Shown here: piece by piece, positions 1,092-46,448 of the stretch | Layout: the number at the start of each line of letters is the position of its first letter | How positions within the stretch are numbered: the first letter of the stretch is position 1 | Source: Opitutia bacterium | GTDB lineage: Bacteria > Verrucomicrobiota > Kiritimatiellia > CAIQIC01 > Lenti-01 | Assembly: GCA_009928955.1 (NCBI GenBank) | Contig: SABN01000002.1 | Span: 8,427 to 72,426, forward strand | Direction of reading: 5' to 3' | Length of the DNA: 64,000 nucleotides | The notes under the pieces: generated by a model | Database searches by the model: none | What the model saw: only the letters and a program-made list of their open reading frames with translations | Told to the model about the DNA's origin: nothing | Position numbers and translations under genes: made by a program

Positions 1092-2186
1092 ATGGACCTG
1101 GACCCCTTGTATTTTCAGCAGGTGGCCGCGCGCGCCGAGGAGTTGGAGCGCGCGATGTCCGTGCCGGGCGCGGCGGCCAACCCCCGCACCTTCAAGGAGC
1201 TGGTCCGCGAACACCAACGCCTGCGCGACCTGTCGCTGGCTTCGGCGGAAGTTCAGCGCCTCCTCCGCGTGATGGCCGAGAACGCCGAGCTGCTCGCCGC
1301 CAGCGCGAGCGATCCGGAGATGGCGGAAATCGCCCGCGAGGAAAAGGCGGAGCTGGAAGCGGAGCTGCCGAAGGCGGAGCGCCGGCTCATGGGGTTGATG
1401 CTGCCGCCGGACCCCGACGACAGCCGCAACACCATCCTGGAGATCCGCGCCGGCACGGGCGGGGAGGAGGCCGCCCTGTTCGCGGGCGACCTGTACCGGA
1501 TGTATACCCGTTTCGCCGATTCGCGCGGATGGAAGACCGGCGTGATCGACGCCTCGCCCTCCGACCTGGGCGGCTTCAAGGAAATCATCTTTTCGGTCGA
1601 AGGCACGGATGTCTACAAGACGCTCCGCTATGAAAGCGGCGGGCATCGCGTGCAGCGCGTGCCCGCAACCGAGGCCCAGGGCCGCATCCACACGTCGGCC
1701 GCCACCGTGGCCGTGCTGCCCGAGGTCGAGGAGGTCAGCGAAGTGGAGATCAAGAACGAGGATCTGCGGATCGATCTGTATTGCGCCTCCGGTCCGGGCG
1801 GCCAGAAGGTCAACAAGACCGAATCGGCCATCCGCATCACCCATCTGCCGACGGGGCTGGTGGTGGCCTGCCAGGACGAGCGCAGCCAAAACCGGAATCG
1901 CGACAAGGCCATGCGGGTGCTGGCCGCCCGCCTGCTGGACCTCAAGCGCCAGCAGGACCACGACAAGATGGCCGACGAGCGCAAGACGCAGATCGGGTCG
2001 GGCGACCGCAGCGAGCGCATCCGCACCTACAATTTCCCGCAGAACCGCCTGACCGACCACCGCATCAACCTGACGTTGTATTGCCTCGACCAGATCGTGG
2101 AGGGCAAGCTGGACGAGGTCATCGGCGCCTTGCAGGCGCGCGACATCGAGTTGCGGCTGGCCGCCCAGATGGGATCTTCCCGCTGA
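1092..2186 (+). CDS. prfA: peptide chain release factor 1
   Basis: GGQ motif ([23 protein letters not shown]) and RF1-type P-x-T tripeptide ([14 protein letters not shown]). Start placed at MDLDPL (1092) rather than the track's 1059. Confidence 0.92.
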
Positions 2187-35837: not shown

Positions 35838-38800
35838 CTAGGGTTCCATGCGGCGCGTTGGCAAATCGTAGAAGTTTTGGGCATCGTAGCGCCACGTCCA
35901 CGTATTGCCGACGCCCCCGTTTTTCGAAATGATCACCAGCATGTCGTTCGGGGCGAAGAATCCGGGCGGCACCTCTTCATCGGTTGTCATGAAGCGCCAG
36001 ATGTGGCTGGCGTCGCAATAGAGGGTGCTCCCGTTCCGAACGGTCTTGGTACTCGTGTTTATGGTGTAGAGTTGATCGCTGGCATCCCGGTTCCCGCACA
36101 CAAAACCGGATTCGAGAAGTTGCATTTCGCCGGGATGGGCTGAAACCGGCAGGCGCAGCGCCGCCACGTTGTACATCCGCACTTCGGGAGCAATGACATT
36201 CGTGCGTCCGCCGCCGGATCCATAGGAAGCCGCCTGGCCCGTGTGGATCACCTGGCTGAATTGGTTGGTCGGAACCTGCATGATGGGCGACCAGATCATC
36301 GCCGGGAGCACGAGATCCAGATTGGCATCCATGGCGTTGGTGCGGACATAGATCTCGGGCAATGGATCCGGCAAGGTGATGGAAAAGCCCCGGCTGAAGA
36401 AGTTGGAAGGCTGAAGCACATCGGTGACATCGTCCCCTCCGATCCGCATCCATCGGCCTTGCGTGCTCAGGAAATACTGCTCGGTGGAGAAGGCATTGGT
36501 GCCCGGGTTGTAGAACTCCAACACGGTGGATCCGGAATCCGGCATGGCGCTGGCGCCCCCCGGGAAGGTCTCCACGCCGCCGAAGACGGCGTTGAAGGTG
36601 TTGGTGTAGGGCGTGCCGTGCAAGGCCACGAAGTTGGGGCCGCTCGAGAGGACCACGTTGTGCATGGAATAGATTTCCTCGCTGGCCACCCGGCGCTGGA
36701 CGAGTCCCAGCGCATTGGTGGCGCGCCAGCGGTCCTTGTAGGACGCGCGATAGAACCGCAGCTGCCCTCTGGATTTCATCTGTCCGCCATCATCGACGAA
36801 CCAGTTGGAACGGACCGTGTCCACCAACTGCCACTGGTTGTTGCTGCTTTCCTGGAAACGGGCGGAATCCCAGGCGATCAGATCATAGTCTTTTGAAACG
36901 GCGGTATAGATCCCCTGTTCATTGGTGGGTCCCGAGGCGATCCAATGAAGCGCCGCGGCGGTCGGCGTGTTGGTGTTGTCGAGCCGGGCCTCGGGGAAAG
37001 CGGCCTTGGCGACGGATTTGTCGATGGTCTCGCCGCGGATGAGGGCGAACCGGATGGTGTTGTTGGTGGACCAGCTTTGGACCCCGGCGTTCCCGATGTT
37101 GCCCGCCTTGTCCACGCTCACGACCACCACCACGTAATCTTGATCGTACTCCAGATCGTAGAGGCGGACGGCCGGCGTCGCCAAGTTGGTCAAGGCCAGA
37201 TAATTCGATTGATAGCTTGGCGCGGAGGGATCGGCGATCGGGGTGTCCGGATTGACCTGATTCCACGAACGATACGCGCCGTTGGCGACGAAGGTCTTGT
37301 AGATGTAGCCATTGGTGGACGTGGGATCATCGTTGAACGGGACCAACTGAGGATCATAGGTTCCGCAATAGAGTTTGTAGGTATGCCATTTGGAGAGGAT
37401 ATCGATGTCGCCGGGGTTCTTGGTGGGATGGACGGGGTCGCCGGGGTCGTCGGGGCCGATGCCGTTGGTGCTCCATTGCAGGTCGAATTGCGTGGTGGGA
37501 TCATCCACGGTTTCGGTGGAAGCGCCGGTTCCGCCGAGGGGCATGTTCACCGGCGTGGGCGGCGTCATGTCGAACGGGATGTAGAAATACTTGGTCAACC
37601 CCGCGAGCCGATCCCCGCCCCGGTTGTAATCGGCATCCACCGCGAAGATATATTGAGGCACCAATCCCTGGTTTTCGGCCCCCGCGCGGAAGCGCATGGA
37701 AGACCGATTCGTGCCGATGTCCACCGAAAGGCGCAAGAGATCCCAGAAGGTTTCTCCGCCTTCGGCCGTCAAGGAAACCTTCAGGAATTCGATGGTCGAA
37801 TCGCCGAGATCCTGCGCCGGCAGCGAGAAGGAGGTCCAGTCCTCCGCCAGGCCCGGCGAAAGAGTGGCCGTGCCCACCGGATTCAGCAAGTCGTTGGTGG
37901 AATAAGCGGCGATCGTCACTCCGGCCGGCCCGCCGCGATACCACCCGGACATCTCCACGCGCGGGATCACGCCGGATTCATTCCGGAATTCGAAAATCTG
38001 GTAGGCCACGCCGCCGGGCGACTGGCGAAGGCTGTTGGTCCCCTCGAACACCCGCGTGAAATCATCGGCCTTGGTCTGGTAGAAACAATTGGAGTCCAGT
38101 TTCCAATCGCCGCCGTCCGCGATGATTTCAAATCCATAGTTGGCCAGCGCGCCGTTGGTCGTGACCACCGGGAACGGACGCCCGAGGCCTCCCCGGTTCG
38201 AAGCGCTCAGCACATTGACCGGATCGGGCGAGACCCGGTATTCGCCGATGCCGCGGACGTCGCGCTGGATGGACCGGATGGAGTACCCCGGATCCTGATC
38301 GCTGGCCAGCGGGTCGAAAGTGACGATGAATTCCGGCGTATTGGTCCACACGACGCCCAAGCGGTTTGGGACTTCTTCCGGCACGGGGTCATCGTTCACG
38401 CACACATAGCCGAGCGAGGTGGGCAGCATGATGTCGTTGTCGACCGCGGAAATGCGCATCGGCTCGCTGGGCAGGAGCACATATGGCGCATAGAGATCGT
38501 CGAAGAAAGCGGCGGTGTTGGTGCCGACGGCGGCATTGCCGTGGTTCCAATAGCATCCGGCATAGGGCAGGGCGCGATGCAGATGGAAGGTGTTGGTCAC
38601 TTGCGCAACCAGATGGCTTTCCGTGATATCATCCAGCGGATTGCCAAACGCGCCGATGCCGGAGCCGGAGAGTTCTCGGACATACAGGCGCCAGATGCCC
38701 GTTGCCGCTTCCAGATCCACCTGCACGGCCACGGAGGCGGTCGCCGAACTCAGGGGAGCGGACGCGCCGAGGGCGGTCAGGTCGGAATCCAGATCCAGCC

Positions 38801-41800
38801 CGCCGGTGAAGGACGCCAGCGTGACTTCGCTGTTGCGGATGCGGACGGCATAGCCGTTGCCCGTTCCCGAAACCCACCCGGCGGAATCCGCGCCCAGCAC
38901 GAAAGCGGCGCCATACGCGCCGGGCGCAAAGCCCAGTTGGTTGGTGCGGCCCGAGTAGAAATTGAAGGCCCAGGTCATCGTGCCGGCATTGTTGGTCAGC
39001 ACGGGGGCATAGCGGGCGGAGAGGTCGCGGACCACCGAGATCCGCCCGTTGGTTCCGCCGGTTCCGCCGGGGCCATAGAGCTGAAGCACCCGGTTCCGGA
39101 TTTGAACGTTGCCGCCGACCGGGCCCGTGAGATTCGAAAGCCAGCCCTCGCCAATGTTGTCGGCCACGTCGGCGCGGCTGAACGTGTCCAGCGTCATCGG
39201 CACGGCCGATCCGGCCGAGATGGAAGTGAAGTGGGTTTCCTCGGTCAACCAGATGCCGTTGGAGCTTGCCGCCGTCACCCGCGCGGTATAGGTCCCCAGC
39301 ACGGCGGGGAAAAAGCGGGGAATGGTGGTCAAAAACTCCTGGCAATCCCGTCCGCCCAAGGACATCGGCCCGATGTCGGAAAAGGCGGCGTTGCTCAACG
39401 CCAGATTGCCATCCGGATAGATCAGGTCGAACGAGGCGCCTTCCAATGTCATGCCGGAGGCATGATACAAGGTGAAGCTGGCCGTGGCCATCCCCCCCCC
39501 CAGCGAGCGATCGGTCACTTCGTTGGTGAGGGCGAAGGAATCGGTCGCCCAGAAATTCAGCAATTCAGGCACTTGCGCGTCGGGGTCGAAGCACGCGCCC
39601 CTCACCGGCACTTCCAGCTCGGGGAAATCCGTGGAATTGTTGTAGAGGATCATGGTCCATTCGCTCGTTCCGCCCGCCGCGGGCGAGAACGTCACCGTCA
39701 GGGTGATGCTGTTGCTCGACGGAATGGAGGCCGTGGCGGGCAACACGGAGAAGTAGTTGTCGCCGGGGCCGGAAAAGCCGATGGAGCTCAGGCCGAGTTC
39801 GCCCGTGCCGCTGTTGGTCACGGTCACGGTGAGGTTGGAAGAGTCCAGGACATTCACGATCCCGAAGTCCAACTCATCCGGGAAGACCGCGATCGTGGGC
39901 AATCCCAACGTGGTGACCATCTGGGTCTGTGAATTCGCGCTGGTGCAGAGACTGTCCCATTCCGCCCGCACCCGGAAATAATAGGTGACCTCGTGGATGA
40001 GCCCGGTCACGGACAGGAAGGTGCCGGGCACCGGCCGGTTGGAATAGCCGGCGACATCGGCGCCGGCGGAAAACACCATGTCGGTGCTGACATCGAGGCG
40101 ATATCCGAGCGCGCCGGGGACCTCCGTCCATCGGGCCGTGAACGAAGTGACGTTCGTCGGATCGGCGTGCAATCCCTCCGGCGCGGCGGTGAAGCAGGTG
40201 TCCACCGGCGTGAATGCCGTCGCGATCTGCGGCGTGGGCATCTGGGCGCTGGCGAGGGAGGCTTGATTGACGATCTGGGTGTAGATCGCCGGATTGTCGA
40301 CCCAGACTTCGAACTGGATGAGCATGGTTTCATTGGTCTCGAGGGTGATCCCGGAGGCCAAGCCGGGAGGCTCGCCGCCCGGGACCGTTTGATTCAAGCG
40401 GCGCGTGCCGGTGATCAGCACATTGTCGATCCAGACGACGTCGGTTGAATCCATGCCCGAGGGGCTGATGAAGCGGATGACGGTCGAGGTGGAGATGAAG
40501 GCGGACAGATTTGCGCTGAAATGGATATAATCCGCATCGGTGGCCGCGCCCGAGAACCGGCCCAGTTCCGTCCAAGCGGTTCCATTTGAAGACGCTTGGA
40601 TCGCCACATATTCGCCGGCCTCCAGACCGATGCGCTGATAGTCGAACTCCAACGTTGCGCTGGCAAAAAGAGACAGGTCCGCCGCGCGGCGGATCGCCTG
40701 GCTGCCGCCGGAAAAGCGCAGCGTGTAGGTTTCGTCGACGCCGTTGTCGAATTGGATCTGGATATAACCGGCGGTCGGTCCGTTGTTCTCGCCTTCCACC
40801 CAATCGCCGGCCCAGAGTTGGGTCCCGTCATTGTTGGAATACACCCGGCGGCTGAACTGATCGCCAAAGGTCTCATTCACCGTGACCGGCGCGTTCACTT
40901 GGCAGCTGTCGGCCACATAGACGGCGCCGGCCGGCAGCGGATCGATCACCGTCACATTGGTTTGCGCGACTCCGCTTCGGTTGGTGATTGAAATGGCATA
41001 GGTGATGACATCGCCCGCCCACACCGGCCCGGCCGGTTCGGCGCGCTTGGTGATGGTCAGCAGCGCCTCGCCGGGATTGACGACCACCTGCGCAGAATCG
41101 TTTCCGGCATCGGCGTCAATCTGATCCACGCCGGTGAGGCTCGCCGCATTGGTGATGGCCGTTCCGGCGGTGCCGGCCCCGACCACGGCGGTGAGGGTCA
41201 GCGTGGAAATCTGCAGCGGCTCCATCGTTCCGACGGCCCAGATGCCGGTCTCGGGGTCGTAGGTCCCCTGCCCGGCTTCATGCGAAAGATAGGAGAGGCT
41301 GCTGGGCAAGACATCCGTCACTTCCACGGCCGTGGCCGGATCCGGACCGAAATTGGTGACGGCGATCGCATAGACCAACAGCCCATTTTCAACGGGAACG
41401 AGCGGACTGGCGGATTTGCCGACCCCGATATCCACGCTGACCACGGTGATCACCGCGCTGGCGGTGTTGTCGAGGGGAAGGATATCCGCCATGTCCGCCC
41501 CGGAAATCCGCGCCCAATTCGTGAGGGCCGTCCCCGCCGTGCCGGCATCCACGGTGGCCGAAATCTGCAGCTGGGCGGAGGCGCCCACGGCAAGCGTTCC
41601 CACCTCCCAAATGCCGGAGGCGCTGCCGTAGCTCCCCTGCCCTGCGATGTGGGAGGCATAGGTGAGCCCGTTGGTCAGCGGCTCCGAAACCAAGAGGCTG
41701 CCGGCGGCGTTGGGTCCCGAATTGGTCACCACGATGGTATAGACAACCGTTTCCCCCTCGTCCGGATGCACGTCGTCCACGGTCTTGGAAAGCCCCAGAT

Positions 41801-44800
41801 CGGTGTGGCGGACCCCGTCGGCGACCGAAGCCACCACGGGCGTCGGCTGCTGGTCGCACGTCACCGAGACCGTGTTGAGCAACTGGGTGACGGAGCCGGG
41901 GTTGACGACCAAGGCTTGGAAGGTGGCGGTCAGGGCTTCGCCGGCTTCCAAGGTCCGATTCGTGGCCAGCCCGGGGGCGGCCTCTCCCGCCGCCGAGTTG
42001 GTGCCGGGGCCAACGATCCACGTGCTGTCCGCCACATAGACCGTTCCCGTCGGAAGCGCATCGCCGATTTGAATCCCCGTGTGGGCGACGCTGCTGAGAT
42101 TCGAGACGGCGATGGTGTAAGTGATGATGTCGCCGGGGGTCGCGTAGCCGACCACATCGGAGGTCTTGACCACTTGCAATCCGCTGATGGCGATGGTCGC
42201 CTCATCTTGATTGTTCCCGCTGACGGGGTCCGCGAGGTCGGCCGCGGAGATGCGGCTGCGATTGGTGATGACCGTTCCAAAGGTGCCGACGCCGACTTCC
42301 GCCGTCAGCGTCAGGGTCGCGGAATAGCCGGACGTCACCGCTCCCACGCTCCAGATGCCCGTACCGCTGTCATAGCTGCCCTGGCTGGGCGAATCGGAAA
42401 CATAGACCAATCCATTGGTCAACGGTTCGAACACGGAAATGCCGGCGACATCCGACGGCCCTGAATTGGTCAGCCGGAGGGTGTAAACGATCTGGGAGGT
42501 TTCGTTCGGCGTGGGGTTGTCCACGGTCTTGGTCAGCGCCAAGTCGGCGCCTTCGACCAAGACGATGGCGCTCGCCGCGTTGTTTGAGAGTTCGGGATCC
42601 ACTTGATCATAGGCCGTGACCGTGGCCGTGTTGGTCCACCAGAAACCGCCGGAGCCGGCGGCCGCCGTGACCTCCATCTGGAGGACCGCCGCCGATTCCG
42701 GCGCCAGGGATCCAACCAGCCACACGCCGGTGGTCGGGTCGTAGGCCCCTTGGCTCGGAATCGCGTCATCAAAGACGAATCCGGCCGGGATCAAGTCGCC
42801 CACCTCCACGCCGGTCGCCTCTTCCTGCGCGCTGCGATTGGTGAGGATCAAGGTGAACCACAATGCCCCGCCCTCTTCCACGGCAGACGCGCTGGCCGAT
42901 TTCTCGATTACCAGATCGGCATGGATGACCGGGTCGACCACGGTGGCAGAAAGAGGAACCAGCTGCTGGTCGCTGGAAGCCGTGGCGGTGTTGGTGATGG
43001 CCATCAACTCCAAGGGATCGTCCACCTGGACCTGGAAGGTCGCTTGCAGTTTCTGTCCGGGGGCCAGCGTCCAGTTGGACGCCAGATCGGGCGGGGCGTT
43101 GGTGTCGCCGGTGGATTCGTAGGCGATCCGCACCAATCCATTGGCGCCGCTGCCCCCGTTGCGGTCCGTGTAGGTGTTCGCCTTGCCGCCGGATCCACCG
43201 CCGCCATAGGTGGCGCCATTGGCCCCGGTGCGGTTGTTCGTGACACCCGTTGCGCCATCGCCGCCATGGAGCGCGGTCCCGGATCCGCTGACGCCGTTGG
43301 TGAGGGCGTCGCCGCCGTTGCCCGTGGTGCCCGCGCCGCCGCCGCCCGCGCCCGAACGATAGCTGGTGCCGGACGTGTACCGCCCTCCCCCGCCATTTCC
43401 ACCGCGATAGTTCACATCGCCCACGCACAGGGCGGAAGATCCCGCGCCGGCCAATCCATTGCGATTGTTGATGTTTCCGTCGCTCAACCCCCGCTCGCCG
43501 CCTTGCGCAAAAACCGTGTTGGTCGTGTTGAACCAACTCGGGGTGCCGGGGCTGCCGTGCTGCGAATCCGTTCCGGTGCTATAGCCGCCGATGCCGCCAG
43601 CCCCCACGGTGACGGTGTAGCTTTGCAGCGGGACGACGGCGATGGATTTCTTCGCATACGAGCCGCCCGCCCCGCCGCCGCCGGTGGCCGGATTGCCGCG
43701 GGCGCGTCCGCCGCCGCCGCCACCGCCCCAAGCTTCGACGGTGATACTGGTCACGCCGGCCGGCGCCATGAAGGTCGTCGAGTTGGTATAGACATTGGTC
43801 GCCAAGGTCGCGGGGGTGCGCGTCACGGCCAGACTGCCGGGCACATAGGTCGTTCCGGCCGGAACCAGATCGGTCAACGAAACGTTCGCATGCGTCAGGC
43901 TGCCGGAATTGCTGGCGACGACGACATAGGTGATCGTCCCGCCGGGATGAACGGTGAGGGTCACGTCCGACGCCTTCGTCAGCACCAGGGAACTGACGGA
44001 AAGCTCGGCCGTGGCCTCATCGTTTGCGGCATCCGGATCCGGCAGGTCGGTGGCCGTGATGCGGGCGCGGTTGGTGAGGACCGTGTCCATTGTCCCGCCG
44101 CCGACCATGGCCTGGATGGTCAAGGTTGCCGCGGCATTCACGCCCAAGGTGCCGACCGCCCAAACGCCCGAGATGCCGCTATAGGAACCGTGCGAAACAT
44201 CGTGGCTCACATAGGAGAGGCCATTGGTCAAGGGTTCCGAAACTTGGATTCCCGTGGCTTCCGAAGGTCCCGGATTGGTGACCACCAGCGTGTAGGTCAC
44301 CGTCTGCATCTCGGCGGCCGCCAGCGGTTCCACGCGCTTGGCGATGGCCAGATCCGCCCCGTACACCAGCACGACCGCCGAAGCGGCGTTGTCGGTCAGG
44401 TTCGGATCTTCATGGCTGCTGGCGCCGATGCTGGCCGTGTTGGTCAGGAACAGGCCCCCGCTGCCGATTTGCGCGGTGGCGAAGATCTCCAGCGTGGCCG
44501 TCCCGCCATTGGTCAAGGTTCCGACGATCCACGCGCCGGTTTCGTCATCATAGGAGCCTTGGCTCTCATTGGCGGCGGTGAACGAGAGCCCGGCGGGCAG
44601 AAGGTCGTCGATTTCGATTCCCGCGGCCTCGTACGGCCCCCGATTCGTCACCGCGATGGTGAAGACCACCGGGTCGGCTTCTTCCATGGCGGAGCGATCC
44701 GCGATCTTGGACAAGGCCAGATCGGCGGATTGCACCTCGAAGCTCGCCGAGGCCACGTTGTCGGCCAGATTGGTGTCGGGGCGGTTCATGCGGCTGACGC

Positions 44801-44843
44801 TGGCGACGTTCGTCACCCGGCTGCCGCCGGAGCCGACATTCAC
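35838..44843 (-). CDS. giant surface adhesin, distal 3001-codon segment (DUF11-type repeats, Gly-rich domain, jelly-roll, FN3, ASH/choice-of-anchor-D-like Ig, LamG-like, ~1250-aa unassigned C-terminus)
   Basis: Repeats follow the pattern ADLAxxK...TYTxxVTNxGPxxAxGxxVxxPLxxGLxYVS...GSYxxxxGxWxVGxL...ATLxI. The track start at 44843 is an internal GTG (Val). The frame is open upstream to the TAG at 44898-44900. Confidence 0.9.
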   Translation of the reverse strand: MNVGSGGSRVTNVASVSRMNRPDTNLADNVASASFEVQSADLALSKIADRSAMEEADPVVFTIAVTNRGPYEAAGIEIDDLLPAGLSFTAANESQGSYDDETGAWIVGTLTNGGTATLEIFATAQIGSGGLFLTNTASIGASSHEDPNLTDNAASAVVLVYGADLAIAKRVEPLAAAEMQTVTYTLVVTNPGPSEATGIQVSEPLTNGLSYVSHDVSHGSYSGISGVWAVGTLGVNAAATLTIQAMVGGGTMDTVLTNRARITATDLPDPDAANDEATAELSVSSLVLTKASDVTLTVHPGGTITYVVVASNSGSLTHANVSLTDLVPAGTTYVPGSLAVTRTPATLATNVYTNSTTFMAPAGVTSITVEAWGGGGGGGRARGNPATGGGGAGGSYAKKSIAVVPLQSYTVTVGAGGIGGYSTGTDSQHGSPGTPSWFNTTNTVFAQGGERGLSDGNINNRNGLAGAGSSALCVGDVNYRGGNGGGGRYTSGTSYRSGAGGGGAGTTGNGGDALTNGVSGSGTALHGGDGATGVTNNRTGANGATYGGGGSGGKANTYTDRNGGSGANGLVRIAYESTGDTNAPPDLASNWTLAPGQKLQATFQVQVDDPLELMAITNTATASSDQQLVPLSATVVDPVIHADLVIEKSASASAVEEGGALWFTLILTNRSAQEEATGVEVGDLIPAGFVFDDAIPSQGAYDPTTGVWLVGSLAPESAAVLQMEVTAAAGSGGFWWTNTATVTAYDQVDPELSNNAASAIVLVEGADLALTKTVDNPTPNETSQIVYTLRLTNSGPSDVAGISVFEPLTNGLVYVSDSPSQGSYDSGTGIWSVGAVTSGYSATLTLTAEVGVGTFGTVITNRSRISAADLADPVSGNNQDEATIAISGLQVVKTSDVVGYATPGDIITYTIAVSNLSSVAHTGIQIGDALPTGTVYVADSTWIVGPGTNSAAGEAAPGLATNRTLEAGEALTATFQALVVNPGSVTQLLNTVSVTCDQQPTPVVASVADGVRHTDLGLSKTVDDVHPDEGETVVYTIVVTNSGPNAAGSLLVSEPLTNGLTYASHIAGQGSYGSASGIWEVGTLAVGASAQLQISATVDAGTAGTALTNWARISGADMADILPLDNTASAVITVVSVDIGVGKSASPLVPVENGLLVYAIAVTNFGPDPATAVEVTDVLPSSLSYLSHEAGQGTYDPETGIWAVGTMEPLQISTLTLTAVVGAGTAGTAITNAASLTGVDQIDADAGNDSAQVVVNPGEALLTITKRAEPAGPVWAGDVITYAISITNRSGVAQTNVTVIDPLPAGAVYVADSCQVNAPVTVNETFGDQFSRRVYSNNDGTQLWAGDWVEGENNGPTAGYIQIQFDNGVDETYTLRFSGGSQAIRRAADLSLFASATLEFDYQRIGLEAGEYVAIQASSNGTAWTELGRFSGAATDADYIHFSANLSAFISTSTVIRFISPSGMDSTDVVWIDNVLITGTRRLNQTVPGGEPPGLASGITLETNETMLIQFEVWVDNPAIYTQIVNQASLASAQMPTPQIATAFTPVDTCFTAAPEGLHADPTNVTSFTARWTEVPGALGYRLDVSTDMVFSAGADVAGYSNRPVPGTFLSVTGLIHEVTYYFRVRAEWDSLCTSANSQTQMVTTLGLPTIAVFPDELDFGIVNVLDSSNLTVTVTNSGTGELGLSSIGFSGPGDNYFSVLPATASIPSSNSITLTVTFSPAAGGTSEWTMILYNNSTDFPELEVPVRGACFDPDAQVPELLNFWATDSFALTNEVTDRSLGGGMATASFTLYHASGMTLEGASFDLIYPDGNLALSNAAFSDIGPMSLGGRDCQEFLTTIPRFFPAVLGTYTARVTAASSNGIWLTEETHFTSISAGSAVPMTLDTFSRADVADNIGEGWLSNLTGPVGGNVQIRNRVLQLYGPGGTGGTNGRISVVRDLSARYAPVLTNNAGTMTWAFNFYSGRTNQLGFAPGAYGAAFVLGADSAGWVSGTGNGYAVRIRNSEVTLASFTGGLDLDSDLTALGASAPLSSATASVAVQVDLEAATGIWRLYVRELSGSGIGAFGNPLDDITESHLVAQVTNTFHLHRALPYAGCYWNHGNAAVGTNTAAFFDDLYAPYVLLPSEPMRISAVDNDIMLPTSLGYVCVNDDPVPEEVPNRLGVVWTNTPEFIVTFDPLASDQDPGYSIRSIQRDVRGIGEYRVSPDPVNVLSASNRGGLGRPFPVVTTNGALANYGFEIIADGGDWKLDSNCFYQTKADDFTRVFEGTNSLRQSPGGVAYQIFEFRNESGVIPRVEMSGWYRGGPAGVTIAAYSTNDLLNPVGTATLSPGLAEDWTSFSLPAQDLGDSTIEFLKVSLTAEGGETFWDLLRLSVDIGTNRSSMRFRAGAENQGLVPQYIFAVDADYNRGGDRLAGLTKYFYIPFDMTPPTPVNMPLGGTGASTETVDDPTTQFDLQWSTNGIGPDDPGDPVHPTKNPGDIDILSKWHTYKLYCGTYDPQLVPFNDDPTSTNGYIYKTFVANGAYRSWNQVNPDTPIADPSAPSYQSNYLALTNLATPAVRLYDLEYDQDYVVVVVSVDKAGNIGNAGVQSWSTNNTIRFALIRGETIDKSVAKAAFPEARLDNTNTPTAAALHWIASGPTNEQGIYTAVSKDYDLIAWDSARFQESSNNQWQLVDTVRSNWFVDDGGQMKSRGQLRFYRASYKDRWRATNALGLVQRRVASEEIYSMHNVVLSSGPNFVALHGTPYTNTFNAVFGGVETFPGGASAMPDSGSTVLEFYNPGTNAFSTEQYFLSTQGRWMRIGGDDVTDVLQPSNFFSRGFSITLPDPLPEIYVRTNAMDANLDLVLPAMIWSPIMQVPTNQFSQVIHTGQAASYGSGGGRTNVIAPEVRMYNVAALRLPVSAHPGEMQLLESGFVCGNRDASDQLYTINTSTKTVRNGSTLYCDASHIWRFMTTDEEVPPGFFAPNDMLVIISKNGGVGNTWTWRYDAQNFYDLPTRRMEP
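39492..39501 (-). repeat. G10 homopolymer inside the adhesin coding sequence
   Basis: The + strand has C10. The coding strand reads CTG GGG GGG GGG ATG (LGGGM). Confidence 0.9.
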
Positions 44844-44897
44844 CGTTCCCGTGATCGACAGCGTGGCGGAAGCGCCCGGGGCCAGCGCGCCGACATC

Positions 44898-46448
44898 CTA
44901 CACGCCGTCCGCGGAAGTGAAGGCGCCCGAAGTCGAACCATAGCCTGAAAACACGAAAGCGGACGGCAAAACATCGGTCACTTGGATCAAGGCCGTGTTC
45001 GGGGTGCCCGCATTCGTCAGGGCGAGGGTGAAGACCACCGCATCGCCGATGTTCACGTTGGTGGGCGCGACGGTCTTGCTCAGCTGCAGATCTCCCGGAG
45101 TCAGGAACAAGCCGGCATCCGCGCTCCGGTTGGTTTGGCCGGATCCCAGCACGTAGGGGTCGGTGATTCCCGAAAGCGAATCCGGGTCGCTGTCCCGATC
45201 GGGATCGGTCCGCGCATATTGGGGGCTGAACTGATAGCCGTCCGGCGGGAAGAACTGCACCGTGTAGGTCCCCGGCCCCATTCCTTGCGCGAAGTAATAG
45301 CCGTTGGAATCGGAGCGCGAGGTCGCCGCCAGCACCTCGTCGCTCGCGTAGATATGCACCAGCACGTTGCTCAGGCCCGGCTCCCCGTCGTCCTGGATGC
45401 CATCGCCGTTCCAGTCTTCCCACACCCGGTCGCCGATGCCCACTTCCAGCACCTGGTCGAAGAACATCGCGCCGCCGCTGATCAGGTCCAGGCCCCCGAA
45501 GGCGGAGTCCACCGTCGTGTTCGTCGGGAAATAGAGATGATTGGTCACCTGCGTCCAATGGGCGCCGTTCGTGGAGACATCGTTGGCCGCCAGCGAATAG
45601 CCGTACACCATGTCGTTCGTCGTGAGGCCGAACTGGTCCCAGCTCAGATACACGCCCGACAGCGATTGCATGCTGGTCCGCGCCGACGGGCGCAAGGGCG
45701 AACCGCCTTCCGTGTAGCCGCGCATCACGGTCGTCTCCATCGTGATGCCCGAAGGCCCCCAGTCCGAGTCCAGCACGGTCACCGGCCGGCTGAAGGCCGC
45801 AGGCAGGCCGTTGGTGTCGACGGCGGTGATCACGGCGATCTTGAACCGGTCGTTGCCGCCGCGGTCCATCACCAGGAAGCCGCGCTGGTCCGTGAAGTTG
45901 TAGTACGGGAAGCCGGCGTTGAAAATGTAGTCGATGCGCTCGATGTTGTTGTTGTTGCCATTGCCGTCGCCTTGGTTGGCGAAGACGTTGTCGGCGCCGC
46001 GGTTCACCAGGTCGCTGCGGAGCGAATTCACCATCGTGGAGACCAGCGACGGCTTCAAATTCACGTTCGAGCTGGCCACCGAGTCCTCTTCGAAGAACAC
46101 GATGTTGTGCAGGCCCGTGACGACCGGGTTGTCCACGCGCACGATGTTGATGCGCTGCGCCAGCTGCACATAGTTGTACACGTTGGTGCCGGTTTCGAAC
46201 CCCTGGATGATCAGGTTGTTCTGCTCGCTGGAATTGAAGGCCAGGTTGTAGACCGTCCCGGTCGGATAGTCGCCGCTCCCCGCGCCGCGAACGGAATAGT
46301 TTTCGTTCGTGCTGCCAATGGTCGCATAGCGGGCCATGATGCCCGTGACCGGGCGCACCTGCGCAACGGCTGAAGAACATGCCGCCCCGAGACAAAACGC
46401 TCCCCCGATCAACAATCGCCATCCGTGAATATAGATTTTTGCGCTCAC
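44898..46448 (-). CDS. giant surface adhesin, proximal 516-codon segment (signal peptide, SdrD-B/Cna-B-like domain, first DUF11 repeat) ending at an in-frame TAG
   Basis: Signal peptide MSAKIYIHGWRLLIGGAFCLGAACSSAVAQ. IGDRVWEDWNGDGIQDDGEPGLSNVLVHIY...NGYYFAQGMGPGTYTVQF is SdrD-B-like. It ends ...SGAFTSADGV-TAG in the same frame as 35838..44843. Confidence 0.85.
   Translation of the reverse strand: MSAKIYIHGWRLLIGGAFCLGAACSSAVAQVRPVTGIMARYATIGSTNENYSVRGAGSGDYPTGTVYNLAFNSSEQNNLIIQGFETGTNVYNYVQLAQRINIVRVDNPVVTGLHNIVFFEEDSVASSNVNLKPSLVSTMVNSLRSDLVNRGADNVFANQGDGNGNNNNIERIDYIFNAGFPYYNFTDQRGFLVMDRGGNDRFKIAVITAVDTNGLPAAFSRPVTVLDSDWGPSGITMETTVMRGYTEGGSPLRPSARTSMQSLSGVYLSWDQFGLTTNDMVYGYSLAANDVSTNGAHWTQVTNHLYFPTNTTVDSAFGGLDLISGGAMFFDQVLEVGIGDRVWEDWNGDGIQDDGEPGLSNVLVHIYASDEVLAATSRSDSNGYYFAQGMGPGTYTVQFFPPDGYQFSPQYARTDPDRDSDPDSLSGITDPYVLGSGQTNRSADAGLFLTPGDLQLSKTVAPTNVNIGDAVVFTLALTNAGTPNTALIQVTDVLPSAFVFSGYGSTSGAFTSADGV

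What the first reader, a model, noticed from the sequence alone, without database searches (positions are those of the whole stretch)
44898..44900. Single in-frame TAG at a repeat-conserved Trp codon splits a 3,537-codon adhesin gene
ORFs 44898..46448 and 35838..44843 are in the same frame (35838..46448 = 10,611 nt = 3,537 codons).

Across the junction the translation reads ...GAFTSADGV-TAG-DVGALAPGASATLSITG... The equivalent position in at least six later repeats is Trp: GAWIVGTL, GVWAVGTL, GVWLVGSL, GIWSVGAV, GIWEVGTL, GIWAVGTM. A single TGG-to-TAG change therefore explains the stop.

Possible explanations:
- a very recent nonsense mutation (pseudogene, or population variant);
- a sequencing or assembly error;
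- tolerated amber read-through or re-initiation.

The downstream 'start' chosen by ORF callers is an internal GTG with no signal peptide. The distal 3001 aa could therefore not be exported on their own.
Basis: seen in the sequence. Interest (0 to 1): 0.62.

Follow-up and report, generated by a model that had tools for sequence, protein, structure and literature searches.

The report
Amber stop breaks giant adhesin gene
A 10.6-kb gene for a giant surface adhesin in an uncultured Kiritimatiellia bacterium is cut short by one Trp-to-stop base change that every relative lacks, which is an ordinary, very recent knock-out (or possibly an assembly error), not a new coding trick.

Summary
Window 35838..46448 (minus strand) is one 3,537-codon frame whose only internal stop is TAG at 44900..44898.

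- **One gene, not two.** The stop lies inside the first CLIPPER (DUF11) domain. It replaces a Trp that is present in 9 of 9 aligned relatives. The closest ortholog (92% aa identity) has TGG there. About 30 orthologs of roughly 3.5 kaa are uninterrupted, with a conserved signal peptide and C-terminus.
- **Recent.** dN/dS against the closest ortholog is 0.18 downstream of the stop and 0.20 upstream, so the distal 3,019 codons were under selection until very recently.
- **Recoding is disfavoured.** RF1 is present, there is no CUA-anticodon tRNA and no PylS match. The gene's own conserved terminator is also TAG.
- **A pattern.** Two other giant surface-protein genes in the same MAG carry single-nucleotide lesions (a TAA stop and a +1 T). 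A genome-wide screen found almost no such stops in ordinary genes. This favours real, tolerated mutations over random error.

Interest is low.

The parts
35838..46448 (-). Whole giant fibrillar-adhesin gene: 3,537 codons including the internal TAG and the terminal TAG
   Evidence: It is a single frame with one internal stop. Orthologs of 3,514-3,853 aa are uninterrupted. It is 92% aa identical to P0009/L011 over 3,515 aligned residues.
44898..44900 (-). In-frame amber codon (codon 517). On the + strand it reads CTA, with T at 44899
   Evidence: Searches show the codon. It aligns to W in 9 of 9 relatives and to TGG in the closest ortholog.
44901..46448 (-). Proximal ORF of 516 codons: signal peptide, a ~300-aa N-terminal domain, an SdrD_B domain, and the first half of CLIPPER domain 1
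   Evidence: Pfam gives SdrD_B at residues 338-447 (100 bits) and DUF11 at residues 453-515, covering profile positions 1-63 of 114.
46359..46448 (-). Sec-type signal peptide, (M)SAKIYIHGWRLLIGGAFCLGAACSSAVA|Q, from the GTG at 46448
   Evidence: Identified by inspection. Orthologs have equivalent signal peptides ending just before the conserved QVRPVTGI. The stored gene call (P0121, 486 aa) starts at MRPVTG and misses it.
45108..45437 (-). SdrD B-like domain (PF17210), residues 338-447
   Evidence: E = 1e-28, 100.2 bits against a cut-off of 29.7.
44751..45092 (-). First CLIPPER/DUF11 domain (residues 453 to about 566), bisected by the TAG
   Evidence: Pfam partial match. An alignment to the CLIPPER crystal structure 9IFR puts K458 (45075-45077) on the isopeptide Lys and N547 (44808-44810) on the isopeptide Asn, so the stop at 517 lies between them (paper 10.1101/2025.04.25.650565).
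35838..44897 (-). Distal reading frame of 3,019 codons plus the terminal TAG: 10 more CLIPPER matches, a Gly_rich_2 insert, fn3, a HYDIN/choice-of-anchor-D Ig domain, and about 1,260 aa at the C-terminus with no family match
   Evidence: Pfam and NCBIfam results. There are no further stops. dN/dS is 0.18 against the closest ortholog.
44841..44843 (-). Internal GTG that an ORF finder takes as the start of the distal ORF
   Evidence: It is codon 536 of the intact frame, inside CLIPPER domain 1. No signal peptide follows it.

Best explanation
**What the gene is.** This is one gene for a roughly 3,535-residue secreted fibrillar adhesin. Its order is signal peptide, N-terminal domain, SdrD_B domain, a stalk of CLIPPER/DUF11 domains with inserted domains, and a long uncharacterised C-terminal region.

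**What happened.** In this genome a single G-to-A transition changed Trp codon 517 (TGG) to amber (TAG).

**Consequence (inferred from here on).** TAG is a normal stop in this organism. Translation therefore ends after 516 residues, inside the first CLIPPER domain, between the Lys and the Asn that would form its isopeptide bond. The product is a truncated, probably unstable secreted fragment.
- The distal 3,019 codons lack a signal peptide.
- They would probably also be subject to transcriptional polarity.
- The adhesin is therefore functionally knocked out.

**Timing.** The lesion is very young: the distal frame is still completely open and shows the same purifying selection as the proximal part.

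**Real or not.** Most likely it is a real allele (fixed or majority) in the sampled population. It appears to be one of several recent single-nucleotide knock-outs of giant surface-protein genes in this MAG.

**Shown:** one gene, TGG to TAG, recency, and no recoding machinery detected.
**Inferred:** that the base is real rather than a consensus error, and the fate of the products.
For: **One gene, TGG to TAG**
- The stop cuts a Pfam domain at profile position 63 of 114.
- W is present in 9 of 9 relatives and TGG in the closest ortholog.
- Seven same-genus orthologs have open frames of 3,537-3,853 aa with no internal stop.
- About 30 database orthologs of roughly 3.5 kaa are intact.
- The signal peptide and the C-terminus are conserved.

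**Recent**
- dN/dS is 0.20 upstream and 0.18 downstream.
- There is no second lesion in 9,057 nt.

**TAG is a stop here**
- prfA (RF1) scores 482 bits, above its cut-off, on the same contig.
- None of the 38 tRNAs has a CUA anticodon, and there is no PylS match.
- TAG ends 26% of long open frames, and TAG shows no excess between same-frame long ORFs.
- The gene's own terminator at the conserved C-terminus is TAG, as in the ortholog.

**Real rather than random error**
- Only 2.7% of possible single-base changes in this gene create a stop.
- A genome-wide screen found in-frame stops within clear coding context only here, in a second giant gene (C171, TAA; orthologs of 3,011 and 3,053 aa are intact), and at one unverified site.
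- A third giant gene, a paralog on C314, carries a +1 T frameshift relative to the intact P0082.
- Random consensus errors would hit ordinary genes far more often.
Against: - A consensus error at 44899 therefore cannot be excluded.
- The MAG is fragmented (345 contigs) and is rated 7.9% contaminated, so a strain mixture or low local coverage is possible.
- No second assembly of the same strain exists in the searched collections.
- The genome is only about 90% complete, so a suppressor tRNA on a missing contig is not strictly excluded.
- The genome-wide screen for in-frame stops is heuristic. It needs at least 80 codons on both sides and a codon-usage score, so it is less sensitive for short genes.
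Confidence: 0.65

Rival explanations
1. Sequencing or assembly consensus error: the organism carries TGG and an intact 3,536-residue adhesin, and the A at codon position 2 is an artefact of the MAG assembly.
For: - The distal frame is perfectly intact and under purifying selection, which is exactly what an error would look like.
- The MAG is fragmented and 7.9% contaminated.
- Two other giant, partly repetitive genes also carry single-base lesions. Giant repetitive genes are where mis-mapping during assembly or polishing would concentrate.
Against: - All other repeats and all relatives carry TGG at this position, so repeat collapse cannot import a TAG.
- Only 2.7% of substitutions give a stop. 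Two nonsense codons arising from random error would imply an error rate that should break many ordinary genes, and the screen does not see that.
- The sequence around the stop has ordinary divergence from the ortholog, with 12 mismatches in 123 nt against 91.8% identity overall.
Confidence: 0.28
2. The amber codon is decoded, either by a suppressor tRNA, pyrrolysine, near-cognate read-through or re-initiation, so a full-length or distal product is still made at a useful level.
For: - The distal frame is open and conserved.
- Low-level near-cognate read-through of UAG occurs in bacteria generally (established knowledge).
- A GTG with a weak GGGA motif upstream lies 18 codons after the stop.
Against: - There is no CUA-anticodon tRNA and no PylS, while RF1 is present.
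- The stop is not conserved in any ortholog, so it is not a programmed site.
- TAG terminates this very gene at its conserved end.
- A re-initiated product would lack the signal peptide and begin inside a domain.
Confidence: 0.04
3. A genuine two-gene arrangement: a 516-aa secreted protein followed by a separate 3,001-aa protein.
For: ORF finders call two ORFs, and the stored annotation has a 486-aa product.
Against: - The boundary bisects a Pfam domain.
- No ortholog has a boundary there.
- The distal 'start' is an internal GTG with no signal peptide.
- Short database hits to the proximal ORF either come from short contigs of a few kb, consistent with contig-end fragments, or read through the W (P0123, P0126, P0130).
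Confidence: 0.01

Closest known systems
Fibrillar adhesins with a CLIPPER (DUF11, PF01345) stalk, e.g. Acinetobacter silvestris B9T28_05395, whose CLIPPER domain structure is PDB 9IFR (bioRxiv 10.1101/2025.04.25.650565)
   Same: - It has a signal peptide, an N-terminal non-repeat domain and tandem CLIPPER domains (10 matches, 643 bits).
- The Lys and Asn of the first domain align with the isopeptide pair of 9IFR.
- It is the same kind of long Gram-negative surface protein.
   Different: - No OmpA-like or other recognisable anchor or sorting domain was found.
- Gly_rich_2 and other domains are inserted in the stalk.
- About 1,260 C-terminal residues have no family match.
- The copy here is interrupted by a stop.
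SdrD/SdrC-type MSCRAMM B-repeat domains (PF17210, NF012181, NF000535)
   Same: One SdrD_B domain at residues 338-447 scores well above the Pfam cut-off.
   Different: The whole-protein scores of 44-47 bits are far below the NCBIfam SdrC/SdrD cut-offs of 1,700-2,500 bits. Only the B-type domain is shared. The protein is not an MSCRAMM of Gram-positive cocci.
Pseudogenisation of large surface-adhesin genes by single nonsense or frameshift mutations, as described in many bacterial genomes (own knowledge, not checked in papers here)
   Same: - There is a single disabling point lesion in a very large surface-protein gene.
- The rest of the frame is intact.
- Several such genes are affected in one genome.
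   Different: This is an environmental MAG, so the lesion cannot yet be separated from a consensus error or a population variant. No ecological correlate is known.
Amber suppression or pyrrolysine decoding of UAG
   Same: An in-frame UAG sits inside an otherwise intact conserved frame.
   Different: There is no tRNA(CUA) and no PylS, RF1 is present, and the UAG is not conserved in orthologs.

Membership tests
CLIPPER/DUF11-stalk fibrillar adhesin | Tandem PF01345 domains above the Pfam gathering score | tested here: met
   the distal part scores 643 bits in 10 stretches against a cut-off of 24.6, and the proximal ORF has a partial match of 45 bits. TIGR01451 scores 264 bits.
CLIPPER/DUF11-stalk fibrillar adhesin | CnaA-like fold with an intramolecular Lys-Asn isopeptide bond | tested here: inconclusive
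   A sequence alignment to 9IFR (E = 0.59) places K458 and N547 on Lys-715 and Asn-806. No structure was predicted or bond tested. The paper notes that some DUF11 domains lack the bond.
CLIPPER/DUF11-stalk fibrillar adhesin | N-terminal signal peptide | tested here: met
   By inspection of the ORF starting at GTG 46448, and by the conserved signal peptides of 11 orthologs that end before QVRPVTG. No predictor was run.
CLIPPER/DUF11-stalk fibrillar adhesin | Recognisable cell-surface anchor or sorting domain | tested here: not met
   Pfam and NCBIfam show no OmpA-like, LPXTG, PEP-CTERM or T9SS domain. The C-terminus ...LPTRRMEP is conserved but unassigned.
Gene inactivated by a nonsense mutation (recent pseudogene or null allele) | Orthologs are uninterrupted and carry a sense codon one step from the stop | tested here: met
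   W in 9 of 9 relatives, and TGG in the closest ortholog.
Gene inactivated by a nonsense mutation (recent pseudogene or null allele) | The codon is read as a stop in this organism | tested here: met
   RF1 is present. There is no tRNA(CUA) and no PylS. TAG is the terminator of this gene and of 26% of long frames. Caveat: the genome is about 90% complete.
Gene inactivated by a nonsense mutation (recent pseudogene or null allele) | The variant base is present in the underlying reads or DNA | not testable with these tools
No independent assembly of the strain was found.
Programmed stop-codon read-through or recoding | The stop codon is conserved at the site in orthologs | tested here: not met
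   None of 9 aligned relatives and none of about 30 database orthologs has a stop there.
Phase-variable contingency locus (slipped-strand) | The lesion lies in a simple-sequence tract that changes length | tested here: not met
   The lesion is a base substitution in GTG TAG GAT, with no repeat tract. The G10 tract elsewhere in the gene is in frame and is not conserved in the closest ortholog.

The most novel reading that the evidence does not exclude
The amber codon may be one of several recent, real, independent knock-outs of giant surface-protein genes in one Kiritimatiellia population. At least 3 of roughly 20 genes over 2,000 aa are affected: TGG to TAG here, a TAA in a 3,011-aa LamG-domain protein on C171, and a +1 T in the 4.2-kaa paralog on C314. 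All three still have intact distal frames. This would point to ongoing selection for losing or varying individual giant surface proteins, for example to escape phage or grazers, or to save cost, through ordinary point mutations rather than dedicated switches.
Probability: 0.25. Interest if true: 0.4.

Novelty: already known. Interest (0 to 1): 0.15.

Why it matters
- **Annotation.** The two called ORFs (486/516 aa and 3,001 aa) should be treated as one interrupted adhesin gene. The proximal start should be moved to the GTG at 46448 so that it includes the signal peptide.
- **Biology.** If the base is real, this strain lacks one of its giant CLIPPER-stalk adhesins. Together with two other broken giant genes, it offers a small natural example of how very large surface-protein genes are turned over in uncultured PVC-group bacteria.
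- **Genetic code.** It does not bear on genetic-code variation. The evidence is against any reassignment or suppression of UAG.

Tried and rejected
- **Read pile-up.** This is the decisive test and it could not be run.
- **Independent assemblies of the same strain.** All of these came back empty:
  - Exact look-ups of both ORF products were not in the collection.
  - A homology search with the 516-aa ORF found only the window's own 486-aa call and relatives at 78% identity or less.
  - A degenerate 44-nt pattern across the junction (TRG at the codon) found nothing in metagenome contigs or genome contigs.
  - blastn against the MAG itself found no strain-variant duplicate of the locus.
- **P0130.** This 519-aa relative looked like a possible recurrent truncation, but it reads through the Trp (GEWNIG) and ends later. 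It is not a parallel case.
- **UAG reassignment or suppression.** Rejected: no tRNA(CUA), no PylS, RF1 present, TAG shows no excess between same-frame long ORFs, and the gene's own terminator is TAG.
- **Repeat-collapse artefact.** Rejected: no other repeat carries TAG.
  - The first translation was in the wrong frame.
  - Genome-search loci are not re-oriented, so minus-strand loci had to be read on '-'.
  - One DNA alignment used wrong ortholog coordinates and was redone from the codon alignment.
  - One search was an empty script.

Full report
**Observation**

The minus strand at 44912..44889 reads GCG GAC GGC GTG TAG GAT GTC GGC (A D G V * D V G), so the TAG occupies 44900..44898.
- The ORF finder lists 44898..46448 (516 aa) and 35838..44843 (3,001 aa, GTG start) in one frame.
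- Translating 35838..46448 gives 3,537 codons. There is a single internal stop at codon 517, plus the terminal stop.

**What the gene is**

- Pfam finds an SdrD_B domain at residues 338-447.
- It also finds a DUF11 match at residues 453-515 that covers only profile positions 1-63 of 114, so the stop cuts the domain in half.
- The distal frame carries ten more DUF11 matches (643 bits), a Gly_rich_2 insert, fn3 and a HYDIN-like Ig domain.
- NCBIfam adds TIGR01451 repeats and a choice-of-anchor D domain.
- DUF11 has been renamed CLIPPER. It has been shown to be a CnaA-like stalk domain of fibrillar adhesins, stabilised by a Lys-Asn isopeptide bond (bioRxiv 10.1101/2025.04.25.650565).
- A weak sequence alignment (E = 0.59) of the first domain to that structure (9IFR) puts K458 on the isopeptide Lys and N547 on the Asn.
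- The stop at 517 therefore falls between the two bond partners. By inference, the truncated product cannot complete the fold.
- The organism is a Kiritimatiellia MAG, judged from the names given to homologs. It is 3.42 Mb in 345 contigs with 66% GC, and is rated 90% complete and 7.9% contaminated.

**One gene, not two**

- A six-frame search of 40 relatives found seven same-genus orthologs at 69-85% identity to the proximal ORF. Their open frames are 3,537-3,853 aa with no internal stop.
- An alignment of nine relatives across the junction has W at the TAG column in all nine.
- The protein database holds about 30 orthologs of roughly 3.5 kaa.
- The closest ortholog, P0009 from an ENA metagenome contig (L011), is 92% identical over 3,515 aligned residues. 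It has TGG where the window has TAG.
- The context around that codon has ordinary divergence: 12 mismatches in 123 nt, against 91.8% nt identity overall.
- Orthologs share a Sec-type signal peptide ending just before QVRPVTGI, and a conserved C-terminus.
- The window's GTG at 46448 supplies such a signal peptide. The stored gene call (P0121, 486 aa) starts after it.
- The distal 'start' at 44843 is codon 536, inside CLIPPER domain 1, and has no signal peptide.

**Age of the lesion**

- Nei-Gojobori dN/dS against L011 is 0.20 for codons 1-516 and 0.18 for codons 518 to the end. No 300-codon window exceeds 0.31.
- The 9,057 nt after the stop contain no further stop or frameshift.
- The distal part has therefore been under purifying selection for essentially all of the divergence from the nearest ortholog (dS about 0.2).
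- The stop is thus either very young or not real.

**Is TAG decoded?**

- ARAGORN finds 38 tRNAs and a tmRNA in the MAG. None has a CUA anticodon, and there is no tRNA-Pyl. The window itself has no tRNA.
- The PylS model finds nothing.
- prfA (RF1) is present above its curated cut-off on the same contig, at about window 1116-2162.
- TAG terminates 26% of open frames of at least 200 codons. It is not over-represented between consecutive same-frame long frames: 280 of 1,239 pairs, against 1,799 of 6,996 terminators.
- The adhesin gene's own terminator, at the C-terminus conserved with orthologs, is also TAG, as in L011.
- The stop is not conserved in any relative.
- Recoding, suppression or programmed read-through is therefore very unlikely.

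**Real mutation or consensus error?**

The decisive test is the read pile-up. No independent assembly of this strain was found, and the MAG contains no strain-variant copy of the locus.

The indirect evidence is as follows.
- Only 862 of 31,833 possible single-base changes in this gene (2.7%) create a stop.
- The same MAG has two more giant surface-protein genes with single-nucleotide lesions.
  - The paralog on contig C314 switches frame at ...DSGDSFTF|YVSTNG... through an extra T (T5 against T4), relative to the intact 4,221-aa P0082. An earlier first-reader note, e1-4649802, describes the same lesion.
  - A LamG-domain protein on C171 is split 1,266 + 1,744 codons by a TAA. Its orthologs in two same-genus genomes have open frames of 3,011 and 3,053 aa, with Asn at that position.
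- A genome-wide screen looked for in-frame stops flanked on both sides by coding-like sequence, with no nearby start codon. It found only these two nonsense sites and one unverified candidate, a TAA at position 40450 in minus-strand coordinates on C175.
- The genome has roughly 20 genes over 2,000 aa.
- If random substitution errors were frequent enough to give two nonsense codons in about 230 kb of giant genes, they should break many ordinary genes. They do not.
- Concentration in giant, probably dispensable surface-protein genes is what real mutations filtered by selection would give.
- Repeat-driven mis-assembly cannot import a TAG, because no other repeat has one.

On this basis I put about 0.65 on a real allele (fixed or majority variant) and about 0.28 on a consensus error.

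**Mechanism (inferred)**

- RF1 terminates translation at codon 517.
- The 516-residue product is exported through Sec, but it ends in half a CLIPPER domain without its isopeptide partner, so it is probably unstable.
- The untranslated 9 kb downstream is likely subject to transcriptional polarity (established knowledge, not tested here).
- Any re-initiated product would stay cytoplasmic.
- The net result is a null allele of one of many giant adhesins.

**Verdict**

- This is an ordinary premature stop in a giant adhesin gene. It is of annotation value and of low general interest.
- The only mildly interesting extension is the cluster of three independently broken giant surface-protein genes in one MAG, which needs read support.

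Noticed in passing
Genome contig C314, about 54136 (minus strand); outside the window: A paralogous SdrD_B/CLIPPER adhesin of about 4.2 kaa is frameshifted by one extra T (ACC TTT TTA CG against F-T-F-Y in intact relatives). It splits into open frames of 1,310 and 3,158 codons. The intact homolog P0082 is 4,221 aa.
   Followed up: yes
Genome contig C171, 15981-15983 (+ strand); locus L020 3799-3801: A 3,011-codon secreted LamG-domain (Laminin_G_3) protein gene is interrupted by an in-frame TAA (…PWLCRLN*ATADLL…). Orthologs in two same-genus genomes have open frames of 3,011 and 3,053 aa, with Asn at that position.
   Followed up: yes
Genome contig C175, stop at position 40450 in minus-strand coordinates: A possible further in-frame TAA within coding-like sequence (…VFVVLPEAGGLVTPAPL*KELAQRGYPAREE…). 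It was not checked against homologs.
   Followed up: no
window 39492-39501 (minus strand): The G10 run inside the adhesin frame (CTG GGG GGG GGG ATG) is in frame here. It is interrupted in the closest ortholog (GGG GGA GGG), so it is not a conserved slippage tract.
   Followed up: partly
window 46359-46448 (minus strand): The stored gene call for the proximal ORF (486 aa, starting MRPVTG) omits the signal peptide. The GTG at 46448 restores a Sec-type signal peptide matching those of the orthologs.
   Followed up: yes
window 35841 to about 39600 (minus strand): About 1,260 C-terminal residues of the adhesin have no Pfam or NCBIfam match but are strongly conserved (dN/dS 0.09-0.16). They end in a conserved …FY.LPTRWM.. 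tail, and no known anchor or sorting signal is present.
   Followed up: partly
window about 1116-2162 (+ strand): prfA (RF1) lies in the same window, scoring 482 bits above its curated cut-off. The genome also encodes a tRNA-Sec (UCA anticodon).
   Followed up: no
window 45438-46358 (minus strand), residues 31-337: The N-terminal non-repeat domain has no Pfam match. It is 33-41% identical to parts of T9SS-sorted and 'LruC domain-containing' proteins of Bacteroidota and Balneolales. It is possibly the adhesive head.
   Followed up: no
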